The notes beneath the pieces were generated by a model. The model worked only from the letters and a program-made list of their open reading frames with translations. It was not told the origin of the DNA and ran no database searches. A stretch of DNA of 63,602 nt, filler included, from Hausera hauseri (taxonomy: Eukaryota), in NCBI GenBank assembly GCA_046269625.1. It is 10 parts of 10 records of this genome, joined end to end, with 100 filler letters (N's around TTAATTAATTAA, not from the genome) between each part and the next. Parts side by side here need not be neighbours in the genome. Positions count along the whole stretch, not along the records: positions 59,646 to 63,602 come from JBJURY010858856.1; 9 more parts are not named here. One strand, 5' to 3'. Of the stretch, positions 11,747-63,602 are shown one piece after another (position 1 is the stretch's first letter; each line of letters opens with the position of its first letter). The position numbers were made by a program, and so were the translations under genes.

Positions 11747-11795
11747 TTATTCTTGATTAGATTCTAATTCTAATGCATAATTTGCTAAATAGTAA
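11745..11795 (-). tRNA. trnL1: mt tRNA-Leu1 (TAG)
   Basis: minus arm ttaga-attagaa-tctaa. Confidence 0.8.
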
Positions 11796-25110: not shown

Positions 25111-25386
25111 ATGAAAGAGTACATTGAGTGTAAAATTCGGAAATTGACAGATGAAATAATGACTGGACACGTGTTTGACGTTTAGTATCTATGTGAGCTG
25201 ACAGAAACCAGGATAATGAGCAGACGAGAGTATATTGAAGTAATAGTTCGATCTCTCTTCATAAAACGTATCAAAGATGAGTGGAAACGAAAGTGGCAAC
25301 AATGACGACATATTAATTTCCTCAGTGGACTTGTATTTACTGCTTCGCTTTGTATTGGAATGAAAAAGTTGATTGACCGTATTTAA
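25111..25386 (+). pseudogene. small ORFan with C-terminal hydrophobic helix, copy A
   Basis: KLTDEIMTGHVFDV..SRREYIEVIVRSLF..INFLSGLVFTASLCIG; homolog at 26860-27183. Confidence 0.65.
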
Positions 25387-25481
25387 TTACAAATTTTATA
25401 TTTGTTTTCGTGAATCAATATAATTTATTTTTTACATTTTAATATAAATATATGCGCTTCTTTACGGTATGACATTACGAC

Positions 25482-25821
25482 ATGTCCCATTTAATAGAAC
25501 TCATTTGTTTATACCACTCGTTCGACGGTCTCAGGAGTCACCTTTACAATTTTTATCGACCTTTACGTGATGCACGATACTGTTCTCCCGAAGAGATACA
25601 CCGGCGTGCTGAGAGAATTGGAAGGCACTGGAACCTTATCTACGACATAAGAAACAGGTTGTTGGTGACATGGACACGATATTCGGTCTGATTTTTAGCA
25701 CCTATTGGAAATTGGCAAATTACTGTGTTGGATGATAATCCACATCAAATACGGTTTGTGGAAGATTTTGTCAAATGTGATTCCAACATTCCAACGTGGC
25801 AATCGGTGGATCAGATTTGCT
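25482..25821 (+). pseudogene. ORFan homologous to 26302-26748, copy A
   Basis: LYHSFDGLRSHLYN..RPL..ARY shared with copy B. Confidence 0.7.
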
Positions 25822-25958
25822 NNNNNNNNNNNNNNNNNNNNNNNNNNNNNNNNNNNNNNNNNNNNTTAATTAATTAANNNNNNNNNNNNNNNNNNNNNNN
25901 NNNNNNNNNNNNNNNNNNNNNCTTTTCTCTTTCAATGTAGAGATTGTTGTAGGTGAGC

Positions 25959-26223
25959 GGACAACACTATTTCCCACCTTCCTGACTATAACGATTGTCT
26001 TGAGTAATAAGAAAATTTGCGATAACCGAAAATGAATGTTAATTTATTTTTATTTTTTATTAATAATTTTTATATTATTATTATTTCATTATTAAATTTC
26101 TTTTCATTTAAATTACCCACATATCTAAATATGTGGAATTTTTGAAAATATTGTGACCAAGTTTTCGGACAACAACATTTCCCACCTACCTCACTATAAT
26201 GATTGTTTTGAGTAATTAGAAAA
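25959..26223. repeat. two imperfect direct repeats of about 55 bp (25959-26014, 26168-26223)
   Basis: ggacaac..atttcccacct.cct.actataa.gattgt.ttgagtaat occurs twice. Confidence 0.75.
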
Positions 26224-26301
26224 CAAAGTTTTATTCTTTTATATCGTGCAATTACTACTACTACTACTACTACTACTACTAATGTTACTAAATCATTCGA
26301 G

Positions 26302-26748
26302 TCAATTCGGATTACACAAACCGCACGGATTAGCCAATTCCAAAGGAGAAGATTGATCGCGACCATCGGAATTAACCGTATTGCAATATTGCTTTAAGCC
26401 CATTTCATCTGCTGACTGCCACATAGGAATGTAATCCGTCTGATTACCACCAACACCACGTTTGACAAAATCGGTCATAAATTGTACTTGACAAGGATTA
26501 CCGTCCAACGTCATTTTTCTATATGTGCGAAAAATCTTACGGAATAAAAATTCCATATCACCAGCAACATGCTTCATATGGGGTAGATAAGGTTCGCGTG
26601 CCCTCCAATTATGCTCACCAAGTAGGAGTAGCTCTTCCGAAGGCAAATATCGAGCATTGTCTAGAGGTCGATCGAGATTGTACAAGTGGTTCCTGAGACC
26701 GTCGAATGAGTGGTATAAGCTAATGAGTTGTGTCGTCAAGTGAGACAT
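26302..26748 (-). CDS. hypothetical protein of the pPolB element (148 aa)
   Basis: intact ORF with a syntenic homolog in contig 3. Confidence 0.7.
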   Translation of the reverse strand: MSHLTTQLISLYHSFDGLRNHLYNLDRPLDNARYLPSEELLLLGEHNWRAREPYLPHMKHVAGDMEFLFRKIFRTYRKMTLDGNPCQVQFMTDFVKRGVGGNQTDYIPMWQSADEMGLKQYCNTVNSDGRDQSSPLELANPCGLCNPN

Positions 26749-26859
26749 TGTATACTCTTATGGAACGCAAGAAGAAGAAGAAGCACATGTACTTATACTG
26801 CAATGTAGCTTGAACACACACACGCACAAAATAAAAACAAACACGTAGCAAAATTATAT

Positions 26860-27183
26860 ATTTATGCTGGGTTAAATACGGTCAATCAACTTTTACATTA
26901 CAATACAAAGCGAAGCAGTAAATACAAGTCCAATAAGGAAATTAATCCTCTATCGTTGCTGCCGTTTTCATCTCATTTTATCCTCAATACCTTTTACGAA
27001 CAGAGATCTGACTATCAATTCGATATATTCACGCCTGCTCACTATTTTCCTTTTTGTGAGTTCACATAAAAACTGTACATCAAACACGTATCCCGTCATT
27101 ATGTCATCGGTCAATTTCTTAATTTCAATTTTAATGTACTGCTCAATTTGATTAGTATTAGTAGAAATAGGGGAAACAAACAT
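26860..27183 (-). pseudogene. small ORFan with C-terminal hydrophobic helix, copy B (frameshift near 26968)
   Basis: KLTDDIMTGYVFDV..SRREYIELIVRSLF; downstream DNA nearly identical to 25314-25385. Confidence 0.65.
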
Positions 27184-27313
27184 TTATAACAGAGTATAGT
27201 TTATGTTTAATGTTTAATTTTACGCGTTTATTTTATTTATAATTTTAAATGTTGTTAATTTGTTTAAATTTAGAAATGTAAGCAATATCCCATGTACTGC
27301 GTCTCGCGCGTAC

Positions 27314-30300
27314 ATGTGGAGGAGGAGGACCAGTGCCATAAAGAGATAACAAAATATTAAAAAATTAGTCCGGACACGTATGTGTGTCCAACGTGTGATG
27401 TTCCAACCCGCTGTCTGTACCCCGACTTTTATAAGATGCACAAGCATCATCTCGGTCCGTTCACGCGGCCCAAGAAGATGATGCATGTGCATTGTTCCAC
27501 ATACCAACACTACTGTAGTAATAAAGTGCACAACGTTAGTGGTTGTCATAGTACAATGGAGCAGTACCATGGCATAACTACAACGCTGCACAATAAACGG
27601 GCCTACCTTTGTCTCGGTTGTTCAGTATTTGAAGCTCAAATCAACTATGAACAATTTTGTAATCTGCACAAGGACCACTTAAACCAGTTTAAGAGGTCGA
27701 AGAAACAAATATTTGTGAACAGCAGCAGCAACATTCTGTCAACAACAAAGAGTAGGAAACGTCAATTTAATCAGAAACAGTACCGAGCAGCAGCAGCAGC
27801 AGGAACAGCATCAACAATAACAGGAGGCCAGTATTCCCAGCATTACAGTCAAGTACGATCTGAACAGATCATACGTGGACATGAAGGTGGACATGTCGGC
27901 GAAAACAGCAACGCAACTGAAGGATGTACCTGCTCATGTGAGTAACCGGTTGGAAACAGAGGTGGCCAAATTCCAACACCATCACTGCAAAGTGCAATAT
28001 TATTCACTTGCAGAATTTGAAAATTAGGAAGGTGACAGGAAACAATGGTACCAAGATTTTATTGCCGACGTAGGAGAAAAGCTCAAGGAGAAAATCGCCA
28101 ACTACACTGAAAGGATTAGTGGATGGCGAAGAATACGAATTATCACTCTCGGCTTTATCATAACAAAGTCGAGTGATATGATATATTTGTCTAGACGATC
28201 ATTCATACCCACACCTGCAGCTCTGAAGCAGTCTCTGGCGGTAGTAAATGTAAAAAATACCAACGATGAATACTGCTTTATTTACAGCATTCTCGCGGTA
28301 TTGAAATATGACGAAGTAGACAGACATAGTGCATTTCGTACTAAACAGTATAAAAAATATTTTTCCGAATCGGATTTCGATGAAAGCTGGATGCCGATGA
28401 AACTGAAATCTATTCCGACTTTTGAACGGCGTAATCTGACACTGGAAGTCAATGTGTTCCGGTGCAACACAATCGCAGAAATACCGGCGGATGAAGAAAT
28501 TTACAAAAATCGTAGTCGGCACCCAAATGGCCGCCGCTCAGTAAATTTCTTGCTACTGGAACGAAAAGAAAAGTACCATTACGTTGCAGTGACAAATCTG
28601 GACAGACTACTGAACATGAAGCCTGACCATTTCCTCCAAAAACGGATAAAGTGTAAATGGTGTCCTGTATGTCTTCATGAATTCTGGTCGGAAACAACAT
28701 TGGAGAAACATGTGACTCTGTGCAGACAAAATTCTTCGGGAACCACAATGTATGTCATGCCCGTCAAAAAGAAACTCAGGTTCACTGATTGATCAAAAAC
28801 AGGCAGTCGGGCATATATAGTATATGCCGATATTGAAGCTATCTTTCCACGGCACAACATATATGATTAAAAACATGTTCCAATCGCCGTCGGTATGTTG
28901 GTTGTCCCAATAAGAGCCGCATGTCGTCAACCTCAATATTACGTTTTTCATGGCTGAAACTGTGTGTGTGATTTTCTGCAGCAGCTGGAAACAATAGTAG
29001 AAACGAAAATCGCACCATGGTACAGTAGAAATAGCAATAAACCTTTGACGTGGACAGATGAAGATGAACGCATGACGCTTGCAGTCACAGATGAATGTTA
29101 CCTATGCCACAAAATATTACCTTTTGATGCAGAGGAAAGGCTGGTACCGGATCACGACCATTTTACCGGGCGATACCTCGGAGCTGCATGCAATTCGTGC
29201 AATTTGGCAAAGCGTGTGCGGCCATTCCTGCCGGTGATTTTTCATAACTTCCAGGGTTATGATTGTCACCATATTCTGAAATTGGCCATAAACGGTTTTC
29301 TACACTGGTGACTATCTATAATTCCAACAAAGATGGAGAAGTACTTGTCCCTGTCGGCACGCATGAACCGGTTCCAGGTACGGTTTCTTGACTCATTGCA
29401 GTTCCTCAATGAGTCTCTAAGAAAGCTCGTAAGTGCCTTGCAGGATATGCCGATAACGCTGACGCAGTTCTCTGCGCATATTGCACGCAGAAAAGGCATA
29501 TTCCCATATGACTTTGCTGTGTCGTACGAGCGGCTTGAGACAACAGATGAATTGCCGCCACAATGGACCGGAATCACAGAGGACGAGTACCACAAAGCAG
29601 AGGAAGCGTGGACAGAGCTCGGCAGCAGAAACATGTTGGAGTACACGCTCCAGTACCTGAAACTGGACGTTTACTTGTTAGCCGATGTATTTCAGACATT
29701 TCGTGCTAAGGCGTTGGTGGACGATAGGCTAGAGCCGCTAAACTTTTACTCCCTGCCGGGGATGAGTTGGGCATCGACACTAATATCGTTGGTCAAGGAA
29801 ATTGAGCTGCTGCAAGACCCGGAAATGTACCGACTATTTGATGTTGGTATTCGTGGTGGCATGACATTTGTCAACAAGCATCACGTAACTAGTGATAACG
29901 ATGATACAACGTCAATTTCGTACATCGATATTAATAATCTGTACGGCTGAGCGCTTTCGCAACCCTTGCCGCACGGTTAGTTTGAATGGTTAATGGACAA
30001 ACAAGAACTGGATACATTGTCGGACAGTCTGCCAGCCGCAAACATGACAGAAAGCAGCTCAGTCGACTACCTAATGGAAGTCGATCTTTTGGTACCAGAT
30101 GAGCTGCATGAGGCTCTGGACGAATTACCCGTGGCACCACTCAGCCAATGACAGCCCGGCTCAAAATTAAAGAAACTGCTCACGACGCATGAACCCAAAT
30201 CCAATTACGTGGTTCATTGGCGTCCACTGCAGTTTTACGTGCAGCTCGGTGTACGCGTCACACAGCCGTATCGCGCAATCAAATTTAATCAGGCACCGAT

Positions 30301-31158
30301 ATTTAAGGTGTACATTGATGGAAATTCAGAGAAACGAGCCGCAGCTTGTACAAAGTTCGAAAAGGACTACTACAAGTTGAAAAATAATTCTCTCTACGGC
30401 AAAACAGTAAAGAACCTCAAAAAATGACTCAATATGCACCTATGTAACAGCGGAAAGCGGCTGGTTACGTAGACCAGCGAGGCTCAGTTCAGGCGGTCAA
30501 TGCACATTGCCGATGGATTGGTTGCAGTGTTGTCAAACCGGGAAGAAGTCGTACTGGACAGACCAAGCTATATAGGACAAGTGGTATTAGACCTGAGCAA
30601 GTTGCGAATGTACGAGCTCCGGTATCGCGGCCTGGCACGCTACCGGCAAATGTTCGACGGCCGCGAGATCAGTATCGTTGCCGGTGACACAAACAGCCTT
30701 TTTTGAGCTGAGAAACGTCAATCGCTACCAACTGATCCGGCAAATGATGGCAGATGGACTACTTGACACATCCAATTCCTCACAAAATCATCTGCTATAT
30801 AGCAACGACATGAGGAACAAAATCGGCTGCTTCAAGGATGAAAGCGAAGGCCGTGTTCAGTATCAAGAATGGATATTCCTACGCCCAAAGTGCTACAGTC
30901 TCCTGACGGACTGTGGACCGAAAATGCGCGCAAAAGGCTTTCAGCTGGCCCAGACAAAAATCGACCACGGTGGTTATCGCTGTATCTACGAAGAAGGAGG
31001 ACAATCAAAGGCTGTTGTGTCTCAAACGATCATCCAATCGACTGAGCACCAGCTGTATACGGTAACGAATAAAAAGTCGCTTTATCATGCAATGATGATA
31101 AGCGTAAGTGGGTGGGGCGAAATAAGAGGTGGGCCTAGGGACATTGGCTTTTGGAATA
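27314..31158 (+). pseudogene. protein-primed family B DNA polymerase polyprotein, Polinton-type, copy B (about 1280 codons, many stops and frameshifts)
   Basis: Cys/His repeats; SGW; OTU-like NDEYCFIYSILA...HYVAV; C2HC finger; ExoI YADIEA; HNH/EndoVII insert; ExoII FHNFQGYD; KGIFPY; ExoIII YLKLDV; IRGG; motif A DINNLYG; motif B KLKNNSLYGK; motif C GDTNS; LRPKCY. Confidence 0.94.
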
Positions 31159-31494
31159 AAATAACATACGTTTAGTGTTCACAAACAGATCAGTGCAAAA
31201 ATGCAATTCAGCCCAGTTAGATCATTGACATTTGTGATCTTTATTTTACATTCATCTACTGTACATGTTTTGTTATATATGATCAATAACGTATTTGTGC
31301 ACTAGTTTTTGTCTTCTGTTTTATAACAAGGAAATAGGACTCAGTTTGATTATCGAAAATAAATTAAAAATCTGATTTTACTCAAAAACTGAAATACTTT
31401 TCATTATTAATCTAAAACACAACACCAAAAACTCAAATAAATTTTATTATATATCATAAACTGACAACACCAAAAACTAAAAAGAGTGTGTCAA

Positions 31495-32060
31495 GTCAAT
31501 TCATTAAGGTAAACTTCCCCAACTTCCACACTGGAGATTTAATACCACGTAGCTCCATATATCCTTTCAGCTTCATTCACTGCTGTTTGTCCACTTGCAC
31601 TCACAATTTTCGCCACGTTGCCTTTAAGTAAAAGTGGGTATGTGTCCCGAATACCATTGGACAACATTAAATCATTGTCCACTTTCTTTATCGTTTCCTC
31701 AAATGCATCCAAGTCGCTGTCACCGATTTTCTTTGCAAACGAGTCATATTTTACTTGCTTCATTTTTATCGGTGTTGATAATTGCACTAGAATGGAGGTT
31801 CGCAGGAAGTGTATATTGTACCCGTTGTACACTATGGACTGTATGAGGGAATGAGGACCGTACGTGGACTCACTGTTGCTTCCTAAATACATATTAAGGT
31901 CAAAAAGTAAAAATGAAATGGACTTATTGCAACCTGGCGCAGTTGAACTGTCGGTGTTGTTGTTGTTTCTGCTGCAGCAGATGCTGTTGTTTTGTTGTGC
32001 AGACATTGTAGAAACAAAGAGAAATGAAAAAACATCCATATTTATACCAAATTTGCTCAA
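31495..32060 (-). CDS. hypothetical protein convergent with pPolB (3' frameshift)
   Basis: 173-aa ORF with a syntenic homolog at 20887-21084. Confidence 0.6.
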
Positions 32061-32414
32061 ATCGGTTTACTTTCGTTGTAAACAATGGACCAAATATGTA
32101 CAAACCGGTTTGCTTTAATTAGACAAACAGTGTACAAACGGTCAATAACACACGTGACGCCGTCTGTATTAAAAGTCATTCGTAATAAATGCACCTGCTG
32201 CTCTCGAAATCAATTCAGTATCAAGTACTTTCCATCATACTACCAAGTCGGAAATTGATAATCAATCAAAATTTTGCAATTGCTTCAGTTGATTAACTAT
32301 TTCCATGATGATTAATATTATTTCCTACCAATATTTATAGTTTTTGAACTATTCAACTAACCATTACGGCGTAACTTATTTACAGAAAAAAAAGAAAGAG
32401 AGAAATGCATTTAT

Positions 32415-32909
32415 TTATTTGCATGAAATGTAGTCAATACAAAGCCGTAGACATTTTTTGTAAGCATAATTTGGTCCATAATCACGATATGGACATATAA
32501 TGTTGTCAAGTACCATCGCCAGCGAGCTCTTTGATGTTAATGTTGAATACGTCGTCATTCACAACTCTGGAAACTGTGAATGGAGTTGTGTAAACCTTTG
32601 CCCGTCAATTTGATTTTTAATGTAAAATATTGTATTTTCAATGTCAAAACGATTACAAATATCTCCCATAATATACGTCGCACAAAAAATTGAATTGCCT
32701 TCGTACAAAAAAAGTCCGTGACGATGTTAAAAGAGAAATCCGTTTGTAATTTTCGCTTTTTCCGTCAGGTCATTCCACACAATACCGGGCTTGAATATGT
32801 AGAGAAGCGGTTTGAAAATGTTACCGACGTCCATAATGCATAATACCCTTATCAGGTACCGGGCATTATCATCTTGGAAAGCTTCAATATCTATAAATCC
32901 TGTCGCCAT
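32415..32909 (-). pseudogene. DEDD/DnaQ-like 3'-5' exonuclease
   Basis: GFIDIEAFQ ExoI-like start, YIFKP..W..L, (stop)HRHGL..YEG and a Cys-containing tail; pattern typical of small exonucleases in invertebrate endogenous DNA-virus elements. Confidence 0.6.
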
Positions 32910-32994
32910 TACTTATCTCTGATACAAAATCATTTTTTGTTTATAATACAAGCATAACAACTAACTAGTATTATTGTTATTATCATCACAATCA

Positions 32995-33399
32995 TTAAAC
33001 ATAGGTGGTTTTGTCCATATCACCAAAGACGAATTCTTTGCGTTCATTTCGTGTTGATTCATTGATACAAAACAATCCCCATTGTTCCGGTGACATTACA
33101 CTAAATTCCACTTCTTCGCATCGAAGAAAAACTATTTGTGCGATTGCACTACCTTTCGGAGAAGCATACGGTTCCCTGGATTGGTTTTCCAGAAACACCT
33201 TAATTTCATCACAAAAGTCTGAATCAATGACACCCCCGCCCACACCGTCAGTCCGAGCTTTGCCAATCCGCTTTTCGATAAAAGTTGACCGTAGTAACCG
33301 GATGAAATCGCTAATTAAATCTCAGTCGTTATACATTTGATTGTGCTGTCCGAAATTGTCGTATTGACATTGGAAAACACATCGTAGCCTGCACTGTTT
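32995..33399 (-). pseudogene. dut: dUTPase
   Basis: motifs SAGYDV, GYYGQLLSKSG, GGVIDSDF, IAQIVF and R..FVFG; one stop and one frameshift. Confidence 0.9.
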
Positions 33400-38764: not shown

Positions 38765-39289
38765 GAACATTTGTTTAATACCCTTATGCAATATAATAGC
38801 TTGTGTTGAAGCTCTAGTAATAAAAGGATCTGGCAGAACACATTGTTTTCTTGAGAAGGACNNNNNNNNNNNNNNNNNNNNNNNNNNNNNNNNNNNNNNN
38901 NNNNNTTAATTAATTAANNNNNNNNNNNNNNNNNNNNNNNNNNNNNNNNNNNNNNNNNNNNAGAAACAAAACTGCTAAAAGGAACAGTGTCTGTGAACTA
39001 TTGAATTTTTGTGTGAACAAGACGTTGAATCTTATCAATATTTTTGTTCTCTGCTGTATTTGCTGAAAGTGATTGTCTTGCTTTGTTTGGAGTGTTGTTT
39101 GATAGTCTGCTGAGGTGATTTGGATGAATTTAAATTTTGATTTGACATGTCAGCAGGTTGAGAATTATTTGGTATGTCGATTAGCATAGTTTTTTGAATT
39201 GATGCAGGTTTTGGAGTAGTAGGTTGTCGTGTAGGTAGAATAGAAGAAGAATGAAAGGAGTCAAGATAGGTTTGTTTAAACTCAGCTTA

Positions 39290-42200
39290 GGGATCCGGTG
39301 TATCATTAACGAAGAATGCAAGTTTCACTTTAGTTATGTGCATGTTTTGTTCTTTATCGTTTTTTAGTATCGTAACCGTGTGGGAGGTAACATTGAGGAC
39401 TTTAAATGGCCCGAAATAGTTTGGTTTGAATCCAAAAGGTGCAGGATTTTTAACCACACAAACTTTGCATTAAATATTGCATCAGGTAGGTATGTTTTTT
39501 CACCATGTATTATTCTACAGAAACAGTCCTGACTTATCTGAACAAAGTGATTTCGTTCAGACCTAATAGTTTCGTCAGTTGGCGTGTTATTTAAATCGAT
39601 AAGTTCAAAGAATGCACGAATTGTGGTACCAAAAAGTGCTTCAGCAGGTGCGCAACCAGTAGTAGTAGACGGCGTGTTGCACCACCCGAGTAAAACGAAA
39701 TGAAGGATGGTTGTCCAGTTCGTATGAGTTTCGGCCAGAATTTTAGGGACATTTTAAGTGTGCGGTGAAAGCGTTCCAATAAGCCATTCGACTGAGGGTG
39801 ATATGGAGTTGTGTGTATGTGATTTATGCCCAGTCGATTAACTAAAGGCTTGAATAGGTTCGATTCAAATTTGGGACCTTGGTCTGTAATTATATAGCGG
39901 GATGAACCAAACCGGCTAATCCAAATTCTTATAAATGCATCGGCTATTGAATCTATATTGAGGGATCGCAACGGAACGGCTTCAGGCCAACGAGACGCGC
40001 GGTCCATCATTGTTAAGATGAATTGGTGGCCGTTATCGGAAGGTAATGAGCCGATGATATCTAAGTGAACTGATTCAAAACGGGACGTACGGGGAAAATG
40101 GAATAAAGGTGGCTTGAGATGCTTAGTTACCTTGAATTTTTGACAAGCCGCGCATTGCTTAACCCAATTCTGTACGTCAAACCTCATTGATGGCCATGTT
40201 ACGTGACGTTTGAGGAGTCGGAATGTAGCCTTGGAACCTGGGTGATGCAAAGAATAAACATGTTGAAATGCAGTTTGTTGGAGAGAAGGCGCCAAAATTG
40301 GCAAATGTTGCCCAGGTGTCGACGTGCCCATGGCTATTCCATCGATGATTTGTGCAGATTTGTACTGTTTAAGAGTTTCAGCGGAAGGTGAATTTTGGAT
40401 TAATTGTTCCTTAGAGAATATTGGTGTGGCACTAATAGCACCAACTGGTCGTGATAAGAAATCGGCTATTAAATTGTCTGTGTCAGAAATATGGCGAATT
40501 TTAAAATTGGATGTTGACAGATATGATATATGGCGTTTTTGTCGAAGTGATAGTTGTTTCATGTTCATTACATGAACAAGAGGTTGGTTGTCCGTTTGAA
40601 TGGTAAAGGAACGAGCGACAAGCAAATGTGAAAAATGTTTCAGAGCTAAAACAATGGCCAGAAGTTCTCTATCGAAGGTGGGATAACGGTGCTTTTATGA
40701 CTGCAGCTTACGTGGAAAAAATTCTAACGGCTCATTTATACCTTAAGATATTTGATGAAGAAGCGCTCCTACCGCTATGGTTTATACGTCGGTTGATAAG
40801 ATGAGGTCAGCATCAGGTTTTGGGTAAGCTAAAATCTCAATCGTTTTAAGCTTGTCGCGGGGTTCATCGAACTGGTTAACAAGTTCTGGTGTCCAATATA
40901 TAAGCTTTTCTTCGGCCTTGCTCCTAGCTGAGCGAAAGGAGCAGTTAACTGGCTACAGTGTGGGACGCATTTATGGAAAAAATGTGAAGTCCCAAGAAAA
41001 CTACGCATGTCAGTAGTGGTTTTGGGTAGTTCGGTGTTTCGTGTTTGATGAATTTTATCAGGCTGTGGACTGTGACCGTCAGGTGTGATGACGTGGCCAA
41101 GGAAATTGACCTTTTCTGGAAGAAAGAACACTTAGAAAAGTTCACTTGAAAATTGTAGTTGTGTAAGCGTTGGAAAACCAGTCTGAGATGTTCTTCGTGT
41201 CGTTTGGGCGATGCCAATGCGACTAGTACGTCATCAATGCACGAATATGCAAATGGCAAGCCTGAAAGAACTGAATCAATGTGCCGTTGAAAAGTTTGTG
41301 CTGAGTTCTTTAAACCGAACGACATTAATGCGTATTCGAAGAGACTAAAAGGTGTTAAAATGGCCTTTTTTGAATGTCTTCGGGTGCTAAAGGTATTTGG
41401 TGGTAGGCTTTTTTAAGATCTATGGTTGAATAAATCATAGTTTTGTTCAAAGATTGTAATATATCCCTAATGAGAGATAACGGATAAGCATCCATGGTGG
41501 TGAAGTTATTAAGTTGTCGATAGTCACCGCATGGGCGGAATGTGCCATCTTTCTTTTGAACGACGTGGAGTAATGATGCTTACGGTGATTTCGAGCAATT
41601 TATAATGTTAGCTTGCTCGAGTGCAGAGAATTCTGCTTCGACTGCCTGTCGATTGGGTGGTGAAAGTGGGAGGAGTTTTTGCCTAACGGGCCTAGGATTT
41701 TCTGTTATTATATGATGAAACGTCGTGTTAGCCGGTCGAAATTCTGGGTCTTTTTTATTGTAAGTAAACAAGATTTGGTTAAATATTGTTGCATTTCTTG
41801 GCTAGGTGTAATAAAGGCTATTGTTGCTATGGCAGTGAACTGATTGGATAGAAACGCTAGAAATCGAATCGCCTAAATCGTCCTTGTCAACGCCTTTTGT
41901 TCATTTATTACAGGACTGCAACAAAAACGTTGGTTTATTTATATTGATATTAATGACGGTCTTATTTACGTTCTTTTAATATCGATTTTGTAGGTGAGAT
42001 AGGTTGCATGATCGGTTGGTTATTTGTAGAGGTCGGTTTTGTTGAATTGCTTTTGATGATCCGACATTGTCAACAATCTACAAGGAGGTTGTAGAAAGAT
42101 AAGAAATCAGACCGAAGTATTGGTGATTGTGTGTCGGCAACGATAAATGTCCAATTAAAAATGTCTGAGAATCGTGGTAAAGTGAATGAAACCTTCGACG

Positions 42201-43002
42201 TGCTGAATACACGTAAAGCTTGGCAGTTTGATGTGTACAGTTTAGTAGAAGTCGGTGAGGTAATTGATATTTTTGTGGGCATTGGTAGAAGAGATACTGC
42301 CGCTCCGGAATCTATTATAAAGTTAATTGGTTGATTAGGCTTGGTGGAAATGAAGGCATTTAATGTGAAGACAACATTCGTGCGGCTGATACAATGACGA
42401 GGATAGCCTTTACCAGTATGCGCTGGAACATTTGGCGGCTTTGACAGTTTTTTTGGATGGGCAGATTTTGGGAGTCAGAAGAATTACTAGGGCATTTTTT
42501 AGGTCGGTTGGAAAACGTGCAACCGTTGATGCAATTTTGGGCTTTATTAATGAACCTATTGTGGTAAATGCAAACAATGTCAGATTTTTGAAAAGAGGAT
42601 GTAAAGAATTTGCACCCCAAGCAACATTTGCTGGATTTATTCTTGAATTTAGTGTGATAATAGAACACCATGCGTCAAGTAGGAGACCTAGCGGATTTTG
42701 ATTTGTTCGATGAATCACGGCTGTGATTAGTTGTGAATTGTACTCGTCGCGGCATGGATAAATTTTCCAGTTTAAACGTTAAAGCAGAAATGACTTTGTG
42801 TATTGCCGTGTTTTCAGCCTGTAGAGCGTTTATTTGGTTATTCAGCGCTACGATTTCTGTATTGGATGGTGTCACAGACAGTTGTAATGTGGCTGCAACA
42901 ATTGGAATATGGAGTGTATTTCATATTTCGTAGCTTTTATCAGCCAGTTGTTATAGTTTTTCTAACGTAGCGGTTAGTAAACTACGGTTAGTAAAACGCG
43001 TA
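39290..43002 (-). mobile_element. decayed Ty3/Gypsy LTR retrotransposon internal region (gag end, PR, RT, RNase H, IN)
   Basis: CxxH..C..C gag motifs, IIDSGAAVS, RPCGDYR, MSFGLKN, CIDDVL, ADFLSR, H2C2, HLDIIG, TDQG, YHPQSNGLLERFH, YFGPF. Confidence 0.92.
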
Positions 43003-50878: not shown

Positions 50879-52778
50879 AAAAATAAAACAAAAAGTCGAT
50901 CTAAACAACAAAACAACACAATATATCGACATTTTAAAATTAGAGCTTTATTTGCCAGTTTAAAATAGATTTAAATTAAATTTCAAACAATACAAAACAA
51001 CAAACTGCACAGACATTATTGTAATTACATATACATATATATAATCCATTTTGTTTGCAATAAAAAGCCGTTTTCTCGGTATAGCCGCTATTTCTATTTA
51101 ATAAGCGAGGCAAATATTACAAAGGCCTAAAGCATTTTGCGATATGGATATTTCAAATTTTATTTCACCCGATCGGTTTAAATTATTGTTATACATGTTG
51201 TATTTTAGTTATGTCACATTTTCTTATTTCATGATTGAAATGAATATTAGAGTTAATATTTAATTTTTTAATGTAAGATTTGTCGAAGTCTGTTTCAGTT
51301 TTAAGTAATAATTTGAGTAATTTAAAAAATAAATTTAACTAGTTAAATAATATTTATATTTAAATCTAAAATTTTCTGCTAATTTTAAAGGTTTTAAATG
51401 ATGTTTAAAATCAATTTTACTTGATTTTGTAAGATTTCCTTTTGCTTCTAAAGGCTGATAATTAGTCCAATGAAACATGTTTTTACATTCCATAATTTAT
51501 TAAAATTAAATTTAGAAAGCGTAAAACATGATCAAAATGAATTATTTTTCCTAAATCATTTATTGAATATTGATTGCCGTATTTTGTAGATAAATGATAT
51601 TTAATGTCACAACCTAGAAATAACATTGTGATATGATTTCCTTTAAATCCTCGAATAGATTTATATATTGCATGTAATAATAAATATCTTATTTATAATA
51701 ATAATTATTATTATTCTGTTAACGCAAACGTCTATATTAATTTATTCGTTGTCGATTATTCTTTCCCTATTCTTTGTGACATTCTAAAATTTTAACTTTT
51801 TGCCCTCGCAGAATAATTTCTCCGCTATTTTCACAATATTCTTTTCCCTGGATTGCAATTTTTTTATTTTCTTGTGCATATTATTTCTTGTATTCAGAAA
51901 AAGCTGCCCGTCTAAATGAAGGGAGAGATTAAAGGGAAAATATTGACGTAATCAGTGGTTCTCAAGTACTATATGATAACGATTTTGCAAATGAACACAT
52001 TGAATGTTCTTGCTGACTTTCCGAAATTTAATGTCTCGGTTTGGATTATCTTATCACCATGAATATTTGATGGACATAAAAATTCATACATGGGAGTAAA
52101 GTCGACAGATTTCGTTTGAAAATGCGGGAGACAGTCCGTAGAATTAATATCCGAATTTATTTAATGAAATATAATTCTAATTTATCCAAAAATATAGTAC
52201 CTCACAAAATGCATGAGGGTGTGCGTGTGTGTATATAGAACGTAAGTATATAGTTTGTATGCAAAATATATGACATCTCTTACTTCCAGTTGCAACAATT
52301 TAATAAAATTTTGAAAAGCTTATCTTTCTAACACAATAAAATTATTTACATGAGAAAACTTGTATAATATTCGACGCTGAATTATTTTCATTACTAAAAT
52401 GATAATTGAATATATAAGCATAATTTACTTTTGTTGTACAACATAAATGTAGAACTATGTTCATTTATTTTGGAAATCGTGAACAACATCTTTACAAACG
52501 TAATTTTGAATGTCATAATTTTAAAACAAATCAATCTCGAAATGTAATTTTGTCCAAATGATTCACAGATCCACCTGATGATAGCTAATAAAGCCGAAAC
52601 ATGGTATAGGAAAAATAAACAAATGAACTTTATTCCACCTTCTTATTTTAATACAATTAATTCATTAAATTTTTAATTAAAACAAATTTTAATATTTATA
52701 ATAATTAACTAAAATTTAAATAAAAAAGTTAAAATAAAAAGTAAATTAAAGTAATTAAATTTTTTGTGTTGTGTTCGG

Positions 52779-53684
52779 AAAATTGCTCAAAATCTTGGTC
52801 TGACTTTGAGTGAAGTTATTTCCAAAACGTTTAGCAATGGAGAAACAAGCGTCGAAATAAAGGAATCCGTTAGAGGAGATGACGTGTTCATTGTGCAAAC
52901 TGGCAGCGGAAACATAAATGATTCATTGATGGAACTACTATTAATGATCAGCGCTTGCAAAATTTCATCTGCTCAAAGAATAACAGCAATAATTCCTTGT
53001 TTCCCATATTCACGACAAGATAGAAAAGATAAATACCGAGTCCCAATATCTGCAAAGCTAGTAGCCAACATGATAACAGCTGCTGGAGCTGACCACGTAA
53101 TTACCATGGACCTCCATGCAAGTCAGATTCAAGGATTTTTTGATATTCCCGTTGACAATCTTTACTCTGAATTGGCAATTGTAAAATGGATTAAGGAAAA
53201 CATTCGAGACTATGAACAGTGTGTTATTGTCAGTCCCGATGCTGGTGGAGCTAAACGAGTTACTTCTGTTGCAGATAAGTTGGGTGTTGACTTTGCTCTA
53301 ATTCACAAAGAAAGAAAAAAGGCTAATGAAGTCGATAATATGGTGTTGGTCGGTGATGTGACGGATAAAGTTGCTATTCTTGTTGATGATATGATTGATA
53401 CGTGTGGAACAATAGTTTTTGCAGTTGATAAATTAATAGAAGCTGGTTCTAAAGAGGTTTACGCAATATGTTGTCACGGTGTGTTTTCCGGACCTGCAGT
53501 TAGCCGAATTCAAAATTCAAAATTTAAATCTGTAATTGTCACAAACACAATAGATCAAACTGAAGTCATGAAACAAACAAATAAAGTACAATGCATCGAT
53601 ATCAGTAGAATCTTATCTGAGGCAATTCAACGAACCCACAATGGAGAATCAGTATCGTTTTTATATTCACACATGCCATTTTAA
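52779..53684 (+). CDS. PRPS: ribose-phosphate pyrophosphokinase, intronless, lacking the first ~17 codons and ATG
   Basis: [53 protein letters not shown]. Confidence 0.93.
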
Positions 53685-55767: not shown

Positions 55768-57250
55768 TGGCTGATTAGCTTGATCACCTTGTTGATGCTA
55801 ATAAAGCATATGGGCGCTGTAACCGTCTATGATTGCGATAAGTTTAAATTAGGACAGAGATATTCCTTAATGGATCTAGAAGTATGCGAGGATGCCAGAC
55901 CGCACAAACTAGAAACAAGAGAGAAAAGTTACTTCCTGTATCAACAAGAATTGGTATCCTAGACGGAATGGAGTGCATGCTGAAACGGTCACGTAGTATT
56001 TTTTACTGTGGGTTGGTCCGTGGACATTCATCTATAATCAAACAAACGACTCCATTGATTCCAATGAACTTAGAGCGACAACACTGCAAACAAGCTAAGG
56101 AAACTGGAAGAATACAGTGGGACAGCATGCAATTAAAAATGCAACCCGGGAAAATAATTAGAGAATATAAAGTTGTAGCCGGAAGACTAGATATGCACAG
56201 CGGACATTGTAATGGAGCAGAATACGATACCGGAAAAGTATTAGAATCAAACGTCGTGGTTGTGGACTTCTATGAATCAGAAATGCGATCACAAAAGGTA
56301 ATGTTCCATAGTGTCACTAAGTTATACACTGAGAATCAAAAATGTCATTTACAAGACGGAACATGTGCTTTTAGAAGTTCGGTTATAATATGGGAACCTC
56401 CCTCTGGAAGAAGCTGTAATTTCATCAAAATTAAGGAGCTAAAGTTTAATGAAACTACCGGAAAACAATACGTGGATAAATCATAAACTAACTCAAGGAC
56501 ACGCGAAGATGTATCATAACACCCTACGCCTACTATATTAATCTCAGATCCGCATGGACTAAAATTTATAAAAAGGGGATGATGATTTGTTGCGATGTAG
56601 TAATGTTCGCCACAAACTATGAAGCATTCTTCGTAGCCGAAACAGAAATAAACGCAAAAACCTACAAATTGGAAACGCAGGATGTTCGGATTGAAGATTA
56701 TCTGCAAGATAAACACGATTACTTCTACTATAAAGGACAAGTTGGAATAACGGAATTATATTATAAAATAATAATGAATGACGGCAAATTAGATACCGAA
56801 ATTATGAGAACTAAAATGGATAATAAATTTTAAGACATCTTGTCGAAAGGTATATACCGGCCGAAGGAAATCGAGGCTTTCAGACAATTCATTGCCTTTC
56901 CACGACAACGAACACATGAGCTAAATCGAACAATGGCATCTGTAGTAGACGACACACGATATCAGGCTAAATGGGAATCATTACTTGGCGTAAACCACTA
57001 TCAGAGTGTGACAACCGAAATACTCTACAAAATCTGGGGAAGATTTTTAATTTTTGGGCAAGCCGCATCAGGATTTTTAGCGATATATTTTTTGATACAA
57101 ATAATTAAGGCAGTTATCCAAGCCGTAATAAACGGATACAAAATATTTCCACTAACCGGATTTTTATGTAAAATTCTGACTGCAATCATAACGCCTTTTG
57201 GAAAATTCCTAAAAGCAGACGAAGAGAGCAGATGGAAATCGAACGTAGAA
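55768..57250 (+). pseudogene. chuvirus-like (class III-type) envelope glycoprotein
   Basis: signal sequence then VYDC..YSLMDLEVC..LYQ, C.....S.FYCG, C..A..TG, GHCNG.EY, C.LQDGTC..IIWE..C, GIY..EI..F..FP, and membrane-proximal/TM block WGRFLIFGQAASGFLAIYFLIQIIKAVI..ING. Confidence 0.75.
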
Positions 57251-57839
57251 CGCCATGTCGGTTACTGTAATCGTAAACGAAGAGGGAGACCGATATTTCT
57301 ACGGAAGCGGAGGTCTACAAATCCGAATGCACGAAGAAATAATTCAGATGATGACAAGCCTAAGGGAGGAGAAGCATTCTCAGGGATGAATAGACACAGG
57401 GTGTACTCTGTAGTTAAAGCGCCATTACCCATGTTACACCCTACCGCTCCATTCTACGAAGATTGTGACAAGCGATTTATGAGCTCATATCAGACAGAAA
57501 TTTATAAAAGGACCATTAATGTAGAAGACCCTTATGAAGGAACGAAACGATACGGAATTTTACGGAAAATGTGTTACCGCCAATCCGCGGATGATCCTAA
57601 GATGATATACTCACCAAGGGAACCTAAACATATGGAAACTAGATCGTCAGTTTGGGACAACCCAAGATTAAAAACCTTCCAACATACAGAAATACATACT
57701 AACAATCGGGAGCCACTAATTAGTACTCATGAAATGGAAGAATTGCACGTAGAAAATAACGAATTATATCCAACCGAAAATTAAGACAGTTGTCGGAAAA
57801 CATAGTATCCACCCCAGAATATCAGTGACTAAACGTTAG

Positions 57840-59545
57840 AAAGTAGCATCGAACTGTTTTGGAACCGTGATCGAAGGAAGACCCTTCGCCAAAATTATTA
57901 TTGAGGAATAGGAAGTTTATGCGTTAATCGATACGGATTCCGAGATATCTTACATCAAAAACGATTCAATACCTCAAACGCTAAGAGGACAATTATATCC
58001 GCCGTATACGAAAGATGCAGGCAGTACGGGTGCTTTTGGCCAAACGTCGAAACCCATGTTTAAATGGAACCCAGAAGTCCAGTCACTTGGACAAATATTT
58101 CGACATGAATTTGCAATCATGGAACAATTAACTGACGATGTCGTTCTAGGATGAGATTTATTGAAAAGGCTACCAAATATAGCAATTGACTTACAAACTG
58201 GAAAGCTAATTGAGATTAGATCAAAAAGGGGCGTAAAAAACGCTAAGGATAGAAAATTTGGAGAAGTATGGATACCAGTAGACGAGAATATCCCACCAAG
58301 AACGGAAATAATAATTTAAGCACAAATTCATAAAGATGACGATCAGCCAGTATACTTTGAACCAAAGGAAACGTTAAATCCAAATCTAACACTTAGTAAC
58401 GTACTTACGAGAGTACACTCCGGTCGTGTACCAATTTGAATAGCGAACAATGCACAAACTCCTATCAAACTCCATGCTTATACTACTCTAGGAGATACGT
58501 ATAGAGTATCGTGGATAAATATCGAAGAGAAACCTTATAAATACGCCGAATTTCCACCTCACGTCGAAACCAAGTTTTCACCCGAGTCTTATTGCCGATT
58601 TTATGAACTATTATGCCGCTATAAATTGATTATTGCTAAGGACGAAGAAGATATTGGTAGAACAAAAGCGTTAAAATTAATTATTCCGCTCAAGAAGAAG
58701 CCGGGTTCAAATGATGAAATAGATCTGGAGGATCAGAAGATGCCAAAATGGTATCCTCCACCACATTCATTAAGACCCGAAATAACGAAAGAAGTTAAAC
58801 GAATGCTTAAGGCAGATATAATTAGACTCAGTTACAGATCCTGGTACTCATCTACCTTTTGGTTAATAAGAAAGGAACTACGAAGCACCGATTTTGTATC
58901 GATTACAGATCTCTAAATAATCTTATGATGAAAGACTCCTTCCCATTGCCCTCAGTAAAAGAGGCTTTAGATAGACCCTCAGGAGCAAAATGGTTTACCA
59001 CTCTGGACTTACAATCCGGATATTGGCAAGTGGAAATAGAGAACGAAGACCGTTATAAGGCAGCATTTAATACTCACGATGCCATTTACGCATTTAACGT
59101 CATGCCGTTCGGTATTACTACCGGACAAGCCATATTTACAAGAATGATGAACAAAATGTTAATGGGACTGGATCATGCCTTTGCAAACTTAGTTGATGTG
59201 ATGATAGCATCGAGAACAGAAGAAGAACACTTAAAGGATATTAAACATACGCTGATGCGTTTGGCACAAGCCGGATTGAAATTAAATCCAAAGAAATGAA
59301 AATGGGCTCAAAATGCAGTATCCTACATTGGCTATATAGTTGGAGAAGGAGGATCGAAACCAGACAACTCGTTGTTGAATAAAATATCGGATTGCATGGA
59401 ACCACAAAATCAGAAAGAGTTGAGACACTGGCTAGGACTTTGTGGATATTACGCAACCTACGTACCAGATAATTCAAAAATTAATGCACCTCTATACCGT
59501 TTACTTAAAAAGGGAATTAAATGGAAATGGACAGACGTTGAGCAA
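57840..59545 (+). mobile_element. Gypsy-type pol pseudogene: aspartic protease, dUTPase-like spacer, RT
   Basis: ALIDTDSEISYI, VVLG*DLL, RFCIDYRSLN, DSFPLP, LDLQSGYWQ, VMPFGI, degenerate YxDD (NLVDV), GLKLNPKK, LGLCGYY. Confidence 0.9.
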
Positions 59546-59645
59546 NNNNNNNNNNNNNNNNNNNNNNNNNNNNNNNNNNNNNNNNNNNNTTAATTAATTA
59601 ANNNNNNNNNNNNNNNNNNNNNNNNNNNNNNNNNNNNNNNNNNNN

Positions 59646-60215
59646 CACAAAAGAATCAGTGATGTTGTTCGATTTTAGCCACTGTTGGTGGAATTGGAGC
59701 CATGGTTTGCTGGAGTTGTTTTCGTTGAGAAAAATTCCAACACAAGGTAAATTTAACGAACCTCGTGACTGTTGGGATTGTGGCAAACGATAGACGTTGC
59801 CTGTATTTGTGGATTTATCATCCGAGAAGGATGAATTTGGATCCAATCCACGTCGGAGACGAAAATGGAGCATGAGATAGATGACTGAACGTTCATGGCA
59901 TACGGAAGACAAGAGGAAGTCTGAAGGATGTATTATAAGCCCTTGATATGTGAAATAGAAATCAGAAGTGTTGTATGATGAGGACAAAACATTATATAAG
60001 AGATGTGCTGTGTGGTTGAGTGGAGCACTTATGGTTGTTACATGCTGATCATTGCTGAAGACAAGGAATGATAGTTTCAGCGAAATGATTCCAGGGGAAT
60101 GGTGAAATGCATGAGGAGTTTGGGTTGTTTCCTTCTGTGCTAACAAGAGGTACGGGCGTGCAGCCGGGGTAGTGGTGGCAAGTGATGATTGGGATAAATG
60201 GATATCCAAAGACAT
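59646..60215 (-). CDS. ubiquitin-like domain fused to a probable Gypsy Gag N-terminus (3' end cut by contig edge)
   Basis: UBL pattern ending FYFTYQG...VIYLMLHFRLRRG, then a linker and LP..F....PWL....WL..NNITD. Confidence 0.55.
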
Positions 60216-60399
60216 TGAGCTTAAAACCCTTTAAAATGAACACTGGTGTTAGCTATGAAAGATTTGTATGAGCGCAGAAAATGGTCGCACTGGTGGGCGC
60301 AAACTAGTGAAAAACATTTCACCCACCTGTGACCGAATGTTGTTTTGCTGAACGCAGTGACAGCATCTTCATTATGACCAAACATTGACGGTGTGCTTG

Positions 60400-60628
60400 T
60401 AACATGGAATGAATGTGCTGAACAGTTTTCGCCGGGACCTAATGCTGTTAAATTGAAATGGGCACCATGTGAACTGATCTGTCTTTGCGGTAAGAGGGTA
60501 TTAGTATCGGCAATATCGGAGGATATTAGTGGATCCAGACCTTTCCTGTTCAAGGCCATAGCTCGTACTGAATAACTAGTTGATTCACTGAGATTGTCCA
60601 GCGTTAGTCGTTCTGCCTTGAACGTCAA
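60400..60628 (-). pseudogene. fibronectin type III domain fragment(s)
   Basis: LTLDNLSESTSYSVRAMALNRKG, then a second partial FNLTALGPGE. Confidence 0.65.
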
Positions 60629-62058
60629 AAACTGGCGTAGGTTTTCTACTCATAACATCTATACTATTTCGTCTCGAATCACGAACAATAATAACCGATT
60701 CTTTTATCATATTCGTTTTCTTTGCATTCTCAAAGATAGCAGCTTCGATCTTTTTTCTATCGCTTTTGTTTAAATGGAAGGAAATGAAACTACTGGATAA
60801 CCAATCACTCAGAAGCCGTATCACATTCACAAAATTATCCTCAAGAGATCGTGTACCATCCAGTGACGAAATGATCACAGTTTGAACTGTGAAAACGAAA
60901 TTGTCTGGTGAACCTTTTCCAATGATGAGAATTAACTCTATCCGATTCCAGATATTGTAGAATTAATTCAATTATCGAATAACAGATATGTCTGGTTACC
61001 TTTAGAACTGCTTTAAGACCCCACAACACAGTCTGATAGATGAAACTAAAGACGAGTTGGTTATTATCGGTACGTAGCCCAATTTCAAAGAGTTTTTTCA
61101 AATCATTCCAATTCCGATGACAAATGGACTCAACGATGAGATCATGGGATATGTCACTATACTCCTTCTTGGACTGAATTCCACCTTTTGTTTGTTCAAG
61201 ATGCTTACATACTCCAGCGATATCATCAGACATCAAAAGAACTGATTTGATTTCTATCAACATAATCCGTTGACTTTTGGCGATCAAAACGCCGCTTGGA
61301 AAATCTCAGTGACCACCTTGAAGATACAATTAATTTCTGGCACGTTCTCAACACTTCGATTGTTTCACCAAGAATTTCATATTTCGTTTTCGTTTTTGGC
61401 AAATATTCCGTGAAAAGACCTTTTACGATCAATTCTACAGATGCGTTGAACGCTTAGCTTTCATAAATTGAGTATCAGTCAATCATCTTGGTTTAAATGT
61501 TATTTCATTGAAAATCTCAAGTGAATGGTAATAGTTTATGGTACAAACTGCACGTGTTGATCGATAATGTAAAACGTTAGATGTGGGGCCAATACTTACA
61601 TTAAATGTTTCAGCTTGAAGTACTTTACAATTTTTTTCAACATCCTTAACATCTTTTCTCGATCTAAAAATCCCTAACATTTTTTCTTAACTTCTACTTT
61701 CAACAGTCTCCACAACAGATAAACAGTATATACCTATCTTTCTCAATAACACCACAGCTGCGAAGTACTTCTAACCAGGCTTCGGGTACATTATGAGTAA
61801 CTCCAAATAAAAATGGACACAGAGCTATCTGTAACATTTTCTGTCGTTGCTCTTCAATGAACTGCCTAGAATTCCTCAGCCAAACAGAAATATAGTCACC
61901 TGAAGAATACAGGAAAAGCATGGATTTACTGATGAAGAGAAGTTCTCTGTGATAAAAATAAATCCGTGTCTCTTTTCCCGGACTGAGTGATGTCCCTACC
62001 TATCCTCCCCCCACACCTATCTTGTTTTTAATTTATTTCAACCATTTAATCAACACAG

Positions 62059-63602
62059 TCATAAATGTAAAACCCAGCAAACAACATCACAAATCAAAAG
62101 TTGCTGCACTGGTCTCTGATGCACCTGGAATTCTTTCAGCAAATTCACATGAAATGTCTGATGTTTTTTCACTCTGTCAGGCATAAACAGTTCATAAGTG
62201 ACCTTACCCACTTGTCGAGTTACTTCATATGGGCCATGCCACTTAGCAAGCAGCTTATTATCTGATGTTGGCAGCAGCAACAGGACCTGTTGGCCTGGTT
62301 TCAGGACCCTCTCTTTAGATTTCTGGTCATACCATCTTTTCTGGTTCTCTTGTGCTGTCTTCATGCTCTCCTGTGCCAGAGCCGTCATCTCCTCCAACCT
62401 CTGTCGCATCTTGACCACATACGCCACAATGTTGTCCTCCGCTGATTCAGGATGTTCCCAGTAGTCTTTCAGGAGGTCCAATGGTCCCCTCACTTGGCGT
62501 CCATAGAGCAGTTCAAATGGGGAAAATCCTGTTAATGCTTGTGGGACCTCTCTGTAGGCAAACAGCAAATAGGGCAACCACTGGTCCCAATCTGCTCCTG
62601 TAGTGGAAACAAACTTGCGTAGCATGTTCTTCAGAGTTTGGTTGTATCTCTCAACAAGCCCGTCCGTTTGAGGATGATAGGGGGTGGTCTTAATTCCCTT
62701 CACTCCTAACAATTTGTAGACTTGTTGTAAAAGCTTAGACATGAAGTTTGTTCCACAATCTGTCAAAACTTCTTTCGGTATCCCAACTCTGGAAAACAGT
62801 TGTATCAGACAGTTAGCAACATTCCTGGCTTTCACACACCTCAGGGGAAAAGCTTCAGGATACCGAGTTGCATAATCACATATAACTAGAATATACTTGT
62901 TGCCCGCTGAGCTTCTCTCCAAGGGACCCACTACATCCATCCCTATTCTCTCAAAAGGAGTACCAATGATTGGTAGGGGCTGAAGATGGGCCAGAGGAAT
63001 CTTCTTTCCTGAAGTGAGTTGACATTTAACACATGACTTACAGAAGTGTGATATATGACTATATATTCCTGGCCACACAAATCTTCTGGCAATTCTACAC
63101 AGCGTTTTCTGAAATCCCATATGTCCAGCCCATGGAACTGTGTGCCCCAGATCCATTACTCTCTCTCTGAACTGTTGTGGTAATGCTAAGGACTCCACAT
63201 CCCCTTTACACTGATACAAAATTCCCCTTTTTACTACATAAGTAGCATCATCAAGAAAACCTGCAGTGCCCCGTCTAGTTCCTTCCACCTCTATGACTTT
63301 ATCAAACCAACATTTTAAAGTTGGATCCTGCCTCTGAAGCTCACCCACATTAGCTGGAAGATTAACATCTAGCAGCTGAAACGGTTTAAAAGTGTTGTCT
63401 GTTTGCCTGGCTGAACCTCTTATTTTGTCCCTCCTTTTCTCAGCCTTGGGTTTATGAGGTTTAACTGGTCCCATTTCCCATACTTCCTCAAAAAATGGTA
63501 ACTCCCTCAAGTTGTTTTGTGCACTTTGAGCCCTCGTGGTGACCATGTTGTGCCCTGCAGATGCTACTCTACATGGGAACTCTATGGTTTGGGCTAAGAG
63601 AG
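62059..63602 (-). mobile_element. Gmr1-like Gypsy integrase ORF, intact
   Basis: HTVPWAGH..CKSCVKC, IGMDVVGP, LTDCGTNF, YHPQTDGLVE, WHGPY, FHVNLLK; preceded by VTTRAQ with no RNase H (ADxLSR) motif in the visible upstream sequence. Confidence 0.88.

What the first reader, a model, noticed from the sequence alone, without database searches (positions are those of the whole stretch)
59646..60089. Ubiquitin-like domain fused in front of a probable Gag
Seen: 59847-60089 (minus) follows the ubiquitin pattern element by element (ISLKLSFLVF, VTTISAP, HTAHLLYNVLSSSY, FYFTYQGLII, FLLSSV, ERSVIYLMLHFRLRRG). One base change (cgt to ggt) gives the RLRGG deubiquitinase cleavage motif. Downstream LP..F..W..W...NITD resembles the N-terminus of one Gypsy Gag class. 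Inference: a retroelement using a ubiquitin leader that host DUBs cleave to define the Gag N-terminus, analogous to ubiquitin insertions in pestivirus polyproteins.
Basis: partly seen in the sequence, partly recalled or inferred. Interest (0 to 1): 0.7.

Follow-up and report, generated by a model that had tools for sequence, protein, structure and literature searches.

The report
Ubiquitin-like leader on retrotransposon Gag
A jumping gene of the Gypsy type carries a ubiquitin-like domain, ending in ubiquitin's cut motif in most copies, fused in front of its capsid protein, so host ubiquitin-cutting enzymes likely release the capsid protein, as in some cattle viruses; this copy is a decayed one.

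Summary
60089-59847 (minus) encodes a diverged ubiquitin-fold domain, followed in frame by a 34-aa linker and the start of a Ty3/Gypsy Gag; the contig ends at 59646. Three independent relatives (P0001, P0005, P0007) have the same leader, ending RLCGG, RLLGG and RLRGG, ahead of a complete Gag. This copy reads RLRRG, but about 93% of sister-copy depth in run X1 reads glycine there. In a model of P0001, 15 of the top 50 structural matches cover the leader and all are SUMO/ISG15/FAT10/ubiquitin (Z 6.8-7.0); the other 35 are retroviral-type capsids. The Gag is DUF7041/Mag-like. Another contig of the window holds a Gag of this family followed by PR-RT-RH-IN. Likely mechanism (inferred, untested): host deubiquitinases cut after GG and set Gag's N-terminus, as for SDE2 and pestivirus insertions. 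Against: no Pfam or significant PDB sequence hit, modest Z scores, selection not significant in the leader alone, and P0005 has a Met right after GG. Six literature searches and four look-ups in this scan's notes showed no prior description; Repbase was not searched.

The parts
59847..60089 (-). Diverged ubiquitin-fold (beta-grasp) leader; ends LHFRLRRG in this copy, diglycine in relatives and in most sister copies
   Evidence: sequence; fold of the P0001 leader; sister copies; weak SDE2 hit, E 0.067
59745..59846 (-). 34-aa Ser/Asn/Pro-rich linker without Met; predicted disordered in the relative
   Evidence: pLDDT <50 for model residues 70-114
59646..59744 (-). Start of the Gag capsid domain (DUF7041/Mag-like), cut by the contig end
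   Evidence: aligns to P0001 and P0007 Gag; Gag identity of relatives
60090..60230 (-). In-frame low-complexity extension; first ATG at 60215, a candidate start
60231..61625 (-). Upstream region of short frameshifted ORFs, including a weak fibronectin-III piece (about 60536-60616); present in several variant contigs of run X1; possible captured host fragments
   Evidence: fn3 E 0.041, below cut-off; E 0.58; searches found nothing for three other ORFs
42477..42986 (-). C-terminal half of a Gag of the same family, with two Cys/His knuckles, on another contig (not joined to the finding's contig)
   Evidence: 35-38% identity to P0005/P0006/P0007, E 1e-24 to 1e-26
39594..42400 (-). Frameshifted pol behind that Gag: protease motif IIDSGA, RT, RNase H, integrase, in Ty3/Gypsy order
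   Evidence: PF00078, PF17917, PF17921, PF00665

Best explanation
This is a decayed copy of a multi-copy Ty3/Gypsy (Mag-like) retrotransposon family whose Gag frame begins with a predicted ubiquitin-fold leader ending in R-L-x-G-G, and host deubiquitinases likely cut after the diglycine to release Gag with a defined N-terminus. Shown: the in-frame order leader-linker-Gag in 4 of 4 elements whose N-terminal part is present (window, P0001/P0003, P0005, P0007); diglycine in the three relatives and in most sister copies; Gag identity; pol behind a family member. Predicted: the beta-grasp fold. Inferred: translation starts upstream of the leader (no Met lies between GG and the capsid core in 3 of 4 elements), a USP5-like enzyme does the cutting, and the benefit is better expression or folding of Gag, a non-Met N-terminus (Ser/Thr), and shedding of whatever lies upstream. 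Donor of the leader unknown; an SDE2-type domain is the best lead.
For: Tail residues: window LHFRLRRG, P0001 VHFRLCGG, P0005 ISSRLLGG, P0007 LHFRLRGG. They keep the positions that SDE2 needs for cleavage, L70, R73, L74 and GG, while residues after the cut did not matter (PMC13572447, section 8 part 1 read). The leaders are only 24-35% identical and linker length varies from 29 to 37 aa. Run X1: 1114.6 of 1195.4 summed depth, 32 contigs, read glycine at the codon where this copy has Arg; run X2: 11.1 of 11.1, 4 contigs. Model of the P0001 segment: E-E-H-E-E-E over residues 5-68, block pLDDT 59-79. 15 of 50 listed matches cover residues 1-73 and all are SUMO/ISG15/FAT10/ubiquitin (Z 6.8-7.0, rmsd 2.3-3.1, 66-73 aligned), with model residue 73 on ISG15 residue 157; the other 35 are capsids. 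The best PDB sequence hit of the leader profile is SDE2, aligned at its RxxGG (E 0.067). Variants shared among copies are 12 synonymous of 20 against 29% expected (P 0.004); variants private to this copy are 5 of 20, i.e. neutral decay. No residue after GG is Pro; that Pro blocks cleavage is recalled.
Against: No cleavage, expression or RNA evidence. No Pfam hit for any leader; the SDE2 hit is not significant; Atlas ubiquitin-like clusters scored only 0.86-0.88. The window's own single-sequence model had pLDDT 48 and no Foldseek match at E<=1e-3. Z of about 7 lies under the tool's caution line of 8, and one search is a second look at Foldseek's top 1000, not an open search. Within the leader alone the shared variants are 5 synonymous of 12 (P 0.25); only 40 of 45 variant rows were visible and each was judged singly. 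P0005 has Met directly after GG and the window has Met 9 aa before the motif's end, so Gag could start without the leader. Only four leaders are known, all from unnamed records.
Confidence: 0.7

Rival explanations
1. The leader is a captured ubiquitin-fold fragment that rides along; Gag is made from a Met at or near the junction and the diglycine is a relic.
For: P0005 has Met right after GG; the window has a Met 9 aa before the motif end; selection in the leader alone is not significant; other host-gene pieces lie upstream in relatives.
Against: No Met between GG and the capsid core in the window, P0001 or P0007; frame, fold and R-L-x-G-G are kept at 24-35% identity; the window's Met is absent at that place in P0007.
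Confidence: 0.1
2. The leader is translated but stays attached, serving as a matrix-like, assembly or proteasome-targeting domain of Gag.
For: Very low similarity to ubiquitin could prevent recognition; USP7 did not process human SDE2 (PMC13572447 passage), so recognition is enzyme-specific.
Against: Uncleaved ubiquitin-like domains usually lose the diglycine (recalled); here it is kept in 3 of 3 relatives and in most sister copies; USP5 processes domains under 20% identical to ubiquitin.
Confidence: 0.1
3. Cleavage occurs, but the selected product is the freed ubiquitin-like protein, acting as a decoy or modifier against host ubiquitin/SUMO-based silencing.
For: A free C-terminal diglycine would be exposed; the fold matches SUMO and ISG15 equally well. 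Giant Gypsy elements of planarians carry ubiquitination-related domains (PMC6431247 passages).
Against: Leader surfaces diverge quickly, unlike conjugated modifiers (recalled); no direct evidence.
Confidence: 0.08
4. The fusion is an assembly or gene-calling artefact.
For: The contig changes character near 61,500-61,900 (CpG count, run coverage); P0006 is a bacterial domain joined to Gag; the long N-terminal parts of P0001 and P0007 may be joins made by a gene caller.
Against: The leader-Gag junction is contiguous DNA in one frame here; contigs of run X1 bridge it (records 1 and 2); three other records share it.
Confidence: 0.02

Closest known systems
Mag-clade Ty3/Gypsy LTR retrotransposons (DUF7041 Gag)
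   Same: DUF7041-like capsid start, two adjacent Cys/His knuckles (noted for Mag in PMC5408684 passage), PR-RT-RH-IN order, Gag similarity to canonical element L001 (E 9e-9). That DUF7041 marks Mag Gag is recalled.
   Different: L001 starts Gag at a Met about 13 aa before the DUF7041 domain, with no leader; this family has a 70-80 aa ubiquitin-fold leader and a divergent capsid below the Pfam cut-off (16.4 of 28 bits).
SDE2 / Sde2 ubiquitin-fold-activated precursor
   Same: N-terminal divergent ubiquitin fold cut at GG by a deubiquitinase; same critical tail positions; best, non-significant PDB sequence hit.
   Different: Host splicing factor with a conserved GGKGG site; here GG is followed by S/T/M/L and a variable linker, then Gag.
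Ubiquitin and ubiquitin-like insertions in cytopathic pestivirus (BVDV) polyproteins
   Same: A host-derived ubiquitin fold placed in front of an element protein (insertions at NS2/NS3 and before duplicated NS3; PMC13517609 passages); use as a processing signal is recalled.
   Different: Those are recent copies of host genes in an RNA virus and can revert; this leader is old, far diverged and fixed across a retrotransposon family.
Ubiquitin-ribosomal protein fusions (Ubi1-eL40)
   Same: Ubiquitin moiety as an N-terminal leader needed for productive expression of its partner (PMC6721733, title and abstract start only).
   Different: True ubiquitin, host gene, supplies the ubiquitin pool.

Membership tests
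Ty3/Gypsy LTR retrotransposon | Gag with retroviral-type capsid fold | tested here: met
   Relative P0001: 35 of 50 rows are capsids, best Z 9.6; P0005 DUF7041 0.96; the window aligns over the first 33 capsid residues
Ty3/Gypsy LTR retrotransposon | pol with PR-RT-RH-IN order behind Gag | tested here: met
   Met for a family member on contig 38962-43002; not readable for this copy (contig end)
Ty3/Gypsy LTR retrotransposon | LTRs, primer binding site, target-site duplication | tested here: inconclusive
   No long repeat within or between contigs; both contigs are partial
Ty3/Gypsy LTR retrotransposon | Dispersed multi-copy family | tested here: met
   646 contigs of run X1 lie on 495 bp, in all identity bands from under 90% to 99+%
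Mag clade | RT phylogeny inside Mag | not tested
   No reference RT set was on hand; the assignment rests on Gag features only
Mag clade | DUF7041 Gag start and paired knuckles | tested here: met
   (E 0.012, below cut-off)
Ubiquitin-fold (beta-grasp) domain | Beta-beta-alpha-beta-beta-beta fold | tested here: met
   P0001 leader model and 15 of 15 matches over it; the window's own model has similar elements but low confidence
Ubiquitin-fold (beta-grasp) domain | C-terminal diglycine in register | tested here: met
   P0001, P0005, P0007 and most sister copies; not this copy
Ubiquitin proper (PF00240) | Sequence match to the ubiquitin family | tested here: not met
   0 Pfam families for the window leader and for 3 of 3 leaders
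SDE2-type Ubl | Significant sequence similarity and GGKGG site | tested here: inconclusive
   E 0.067 and 0.45; no KGG after the site
Deubiquitinase-processed fusion | Cleavage after GG | not testable with these tools
   Needs a cleavage assay or N-terminal proteomics

The most novel reading that the evidence does not exclude
The ubiquitin-like cut site works as a release adaptor that lets this family capture host gene pieces in front of Gag without harming the capsid: relatives carry DIS3L plus CNOT1 pieces (P0001, within a 3.55-kb contig) or a CARM1 piece (P0007) in the same predicted protein, and this copy has a fibronectin-III piece upstream, so each lineage would express its own cargo-leader protein that host enzymes cut from Gag.
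Probability: 0.15. Interest if true: 0.85.

Novelty: new variant of a known kind. Interest (0 to 1): 0.62.

Why it matters
LTR retrotransposons normally cut their polyproteins with their own protease (recalled). A family that hands the first cut to host deubiquitinases would tie its mobility to the host ubiquitin system, offer the host a point of control, and show that the pestivirus trick, known from short-lived insertions, can become a fixed and old part of a mobile element. The claim can be tested with a simple reporter assay.

Tried and rejected
No genome is held for the window. Extending past 59646 is impossible; the neighbouring RT is on another contig and strand. First homolog search with the window protein: 0 of 41 candidates. 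Viral contigs: 0 relatives in two scans; phages: none. The single metagenome scan gave 1 locus of 150 pattern matches, a canonical leaderless element. P0002 was rejected as a repeat-driven chance hit. A LINE reading, suggested by depth rising towards 59646, was dropped once Gag and Gypsy pol were found. Profile comparison of A2 with the L001 Gag start gave nothing (probability 0.3%). Fold search with the window's own low-confidence model was uninformative. The wide VIA search and a plain Foldseek run on the better model were never run. No RNA holder was listed. PDB searches of three upstream ORFs found nothing. A four-leader trimmed alignment including P0007 was not made, so the leader profile rests on three sequences. 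Literature searches (titles and abstract starts only) and look-ups in this scan's notes showed no description of this fusion; the one note returned (Copia capsid fused to an F-box) is another matter. Repbase and subscription journals were not covered; no supplements were read.

Full report
Setting. The window is a string of 10 unrelated contigs separated by N-linkers: a mitochondrial genome, Polinton-like pieces and several retroelements. The finding lies at the end of contig 59646-63602. Nothing can be read beyond 59646, and the RT next door belongs to another contig and the other strand. No genome is held.

Observation. The minus frame 60230-59646 has no stop and holds, in order, a low-complexity stretch with an ATG at 60215, the proposed ubiquitin-like segment ending LHFRLRRG at 59847, a 34-aa linker and 33 residues beginning CVGIFL. 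By sequence alone the leader matches no Pfam family and no PDB chain. The Atlas offered ubiquitin-like clusters only at 0.86-0.88.

Relatives. The exhaustive search returned 2 proteins at E<=0.001, one real (P0001, E 2.3e-20) and one chance (P0002). Two further searches added P0005 and P0006 (2 of 1894 candidates) and P0007 (2 of 7915, one being P0001). P0007 is 46% identical to the window over 162 aa. P0001/P0003, P0005 and P0007 each have leader, linker and a whole Gag; P0006 has only the Gag half behind a bacterial domain and says nothing on the leader. The leader tails are VHFRLCGG, ISSRLLGG and LHFRLRGG, each the only such motif in its protein, 29-37 aa before the capsid core.

The downstream part is Gag. 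The P0005 segment gave DUF7041 in 27 of 30 Atlas hits, best 0.96, with a sub-threshold Pfam hit. The family's Gag matches a canonical leaderless element, L001 (E 9e-9). In the P0001 model, residues 106-263 align with MLV, PEG10, Arc, dArc1, HIV and HERV-K capsids. Contig 38962-43002 of this same window begins inside a Gag of the family (35-38% identity, E 1e-24 to 1e-26) and goes on through a protease motif, RT, RNase H and integrase. The two contigs do not overlap and were not joined. Placement in the Mag clade rests on Gag features; no RT tree was built.

The leader is a ubiquitin fold. The window's single-sequence model was poor (pLDDT 48; no Foldseek match at E<=1e-3). With a 4-sequence alignment the P0001 leader folded with block pLDDT 59-79 as two strands, a helix and three strands, followed by a disordered linker. 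Of 50 listed matches, 15 cover the leader and all are SUMO, ISG15, FAT10 or ubiquitin (Z 6.8-7.0, rmsd 2.3-3.1, 66-73 residues), with the diglycine in register with that of ISG15. These Z values are modest and come from a second look at Foldseek's top 1000. A three-leader profile picked SDE2 as its best PDB sequence hit, aligned at the GG site, at a non-significant E of 0.067.

Sister copies. Two runs hold the stretch. In X1, 646 contigs lie on 495 bp. At the codon where this copy has Arg, 1114.6 of 1195.4 summed depth (32 contigs) reads glycine; in X2, 11.1 of 11.1. Of 45 variant places 40 were shown. The 20 at which this copy differs from at least 80% of depth are 5 synonymous and 15 not, as expected for neutral decay. 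The 20 that vary among copies are 12 synonymous (29% expected, P 0.004), but only 5 of 12 within the leader (P 0.25). So the frame was under selection in active lineages and this copy is decayed; selection on the leader alone is not shown by these counts. X1 may be related to the source sample, and summed depth is not a copy number.

Mechanism. In human SDE2, cleavage needs L70, R73, partly L74, and GG, and does not depend on the residues after the cut; USP5 processes domains under 20% identical to ubiquitin (PMC13572447: passages and section 8 part 1). All four leaders keep a hydrophobic residue, Arg and Leu at these positions. In 3 of 4 elements no Met lies between GG and the capsid core, so Gag likely has to be read through the leader. 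P0005 has Met right after GG, which may preserve the original fusion point but also allows a separate start. The most likely working is a precursor cut by a host deubiquitinase into a free leader and a Gag starting with Ser, Thr or Met. Architecture is shown, fold is predicted, cleavage and its purpose are inferred.

Upstream cargo. P0001 carries DIS3L and CNOT1 pieces and comes from a 3554-base contig; P0007 carries a CARM1 piece with altered conserved residues; the window has a weak fibronectin-III piece in a region covered by several variant contigs of X1. This may be gene capture, known for LTR elements (PMC6431247 passages), or joins made by a gene caller; the DNA of those records could not be read. 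Beyond about 61,900 the contig holds an unrelated Gypsy integrase covered by X2 and hardly by X1, so the contig may be nested or chimeric there.

Novelty. Ubiquitin-like insertions are described in BVDV (PMC13517609 passages). Six searches of the paper library (listings only) showed no retrotransposon with such a leader; passages of PMC5408684 and PMC13524379 did not mention one. Repbase was not searched. Verdict: a real feature, a new variant of a known kind of element; interest 0.62.

Noticed in passing
window 55848-59593 (+): A Monjiviricetes-type fusion glycoprotein (PF24664, two pieces) lies upstream of the protease and RT of a Gypsy-like element, an unusual order. Chuviridae-like glycoproteins beside gypsy pol are mentioned in PMC13524379 (passage).
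   Followed up: partly
window 62062-63600 (-): Intact-looking Gypsy integrase with SH3-like tail in CpG-poor DNA, covered by run X2 and hardly by X1; unrelated to the leader-Gag family; the contig may be chimeric or nested near 61,600-61,900.
   Followed up: partly
P0001 / P0003 residues 45-548: Pieces of two RNA-decay factors, DIS3L and CNOT1, sit directly upstream of the leader-Gag in one predicted protein.
   Followed up: partly
P0007 residues 136-398: CARM1 piece with altered conserved residues upstream of the leader-Gag.
   Followed up: partly
P0006: Bacterial DUF5777 domain joined to the Gag half, probably an assembly chimera.
   Followed up: no
window 1-12523: AT-rich animal mitochondrial genome with positive GC skew; cob on plus, nad1/nad4/nad5 on minus, read by eye from translations.
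   Followed up: no
window 20499-33399: Two contigs with related, broken Polinton/adintovirus-like polymerase B pieces, recognised by eye from translations.
   Followed up: no
window 52755-53684 (+): Intronless ribose-phosphate pyrophosphokinase-like ORF, recognised by eye.
   Followed up: no
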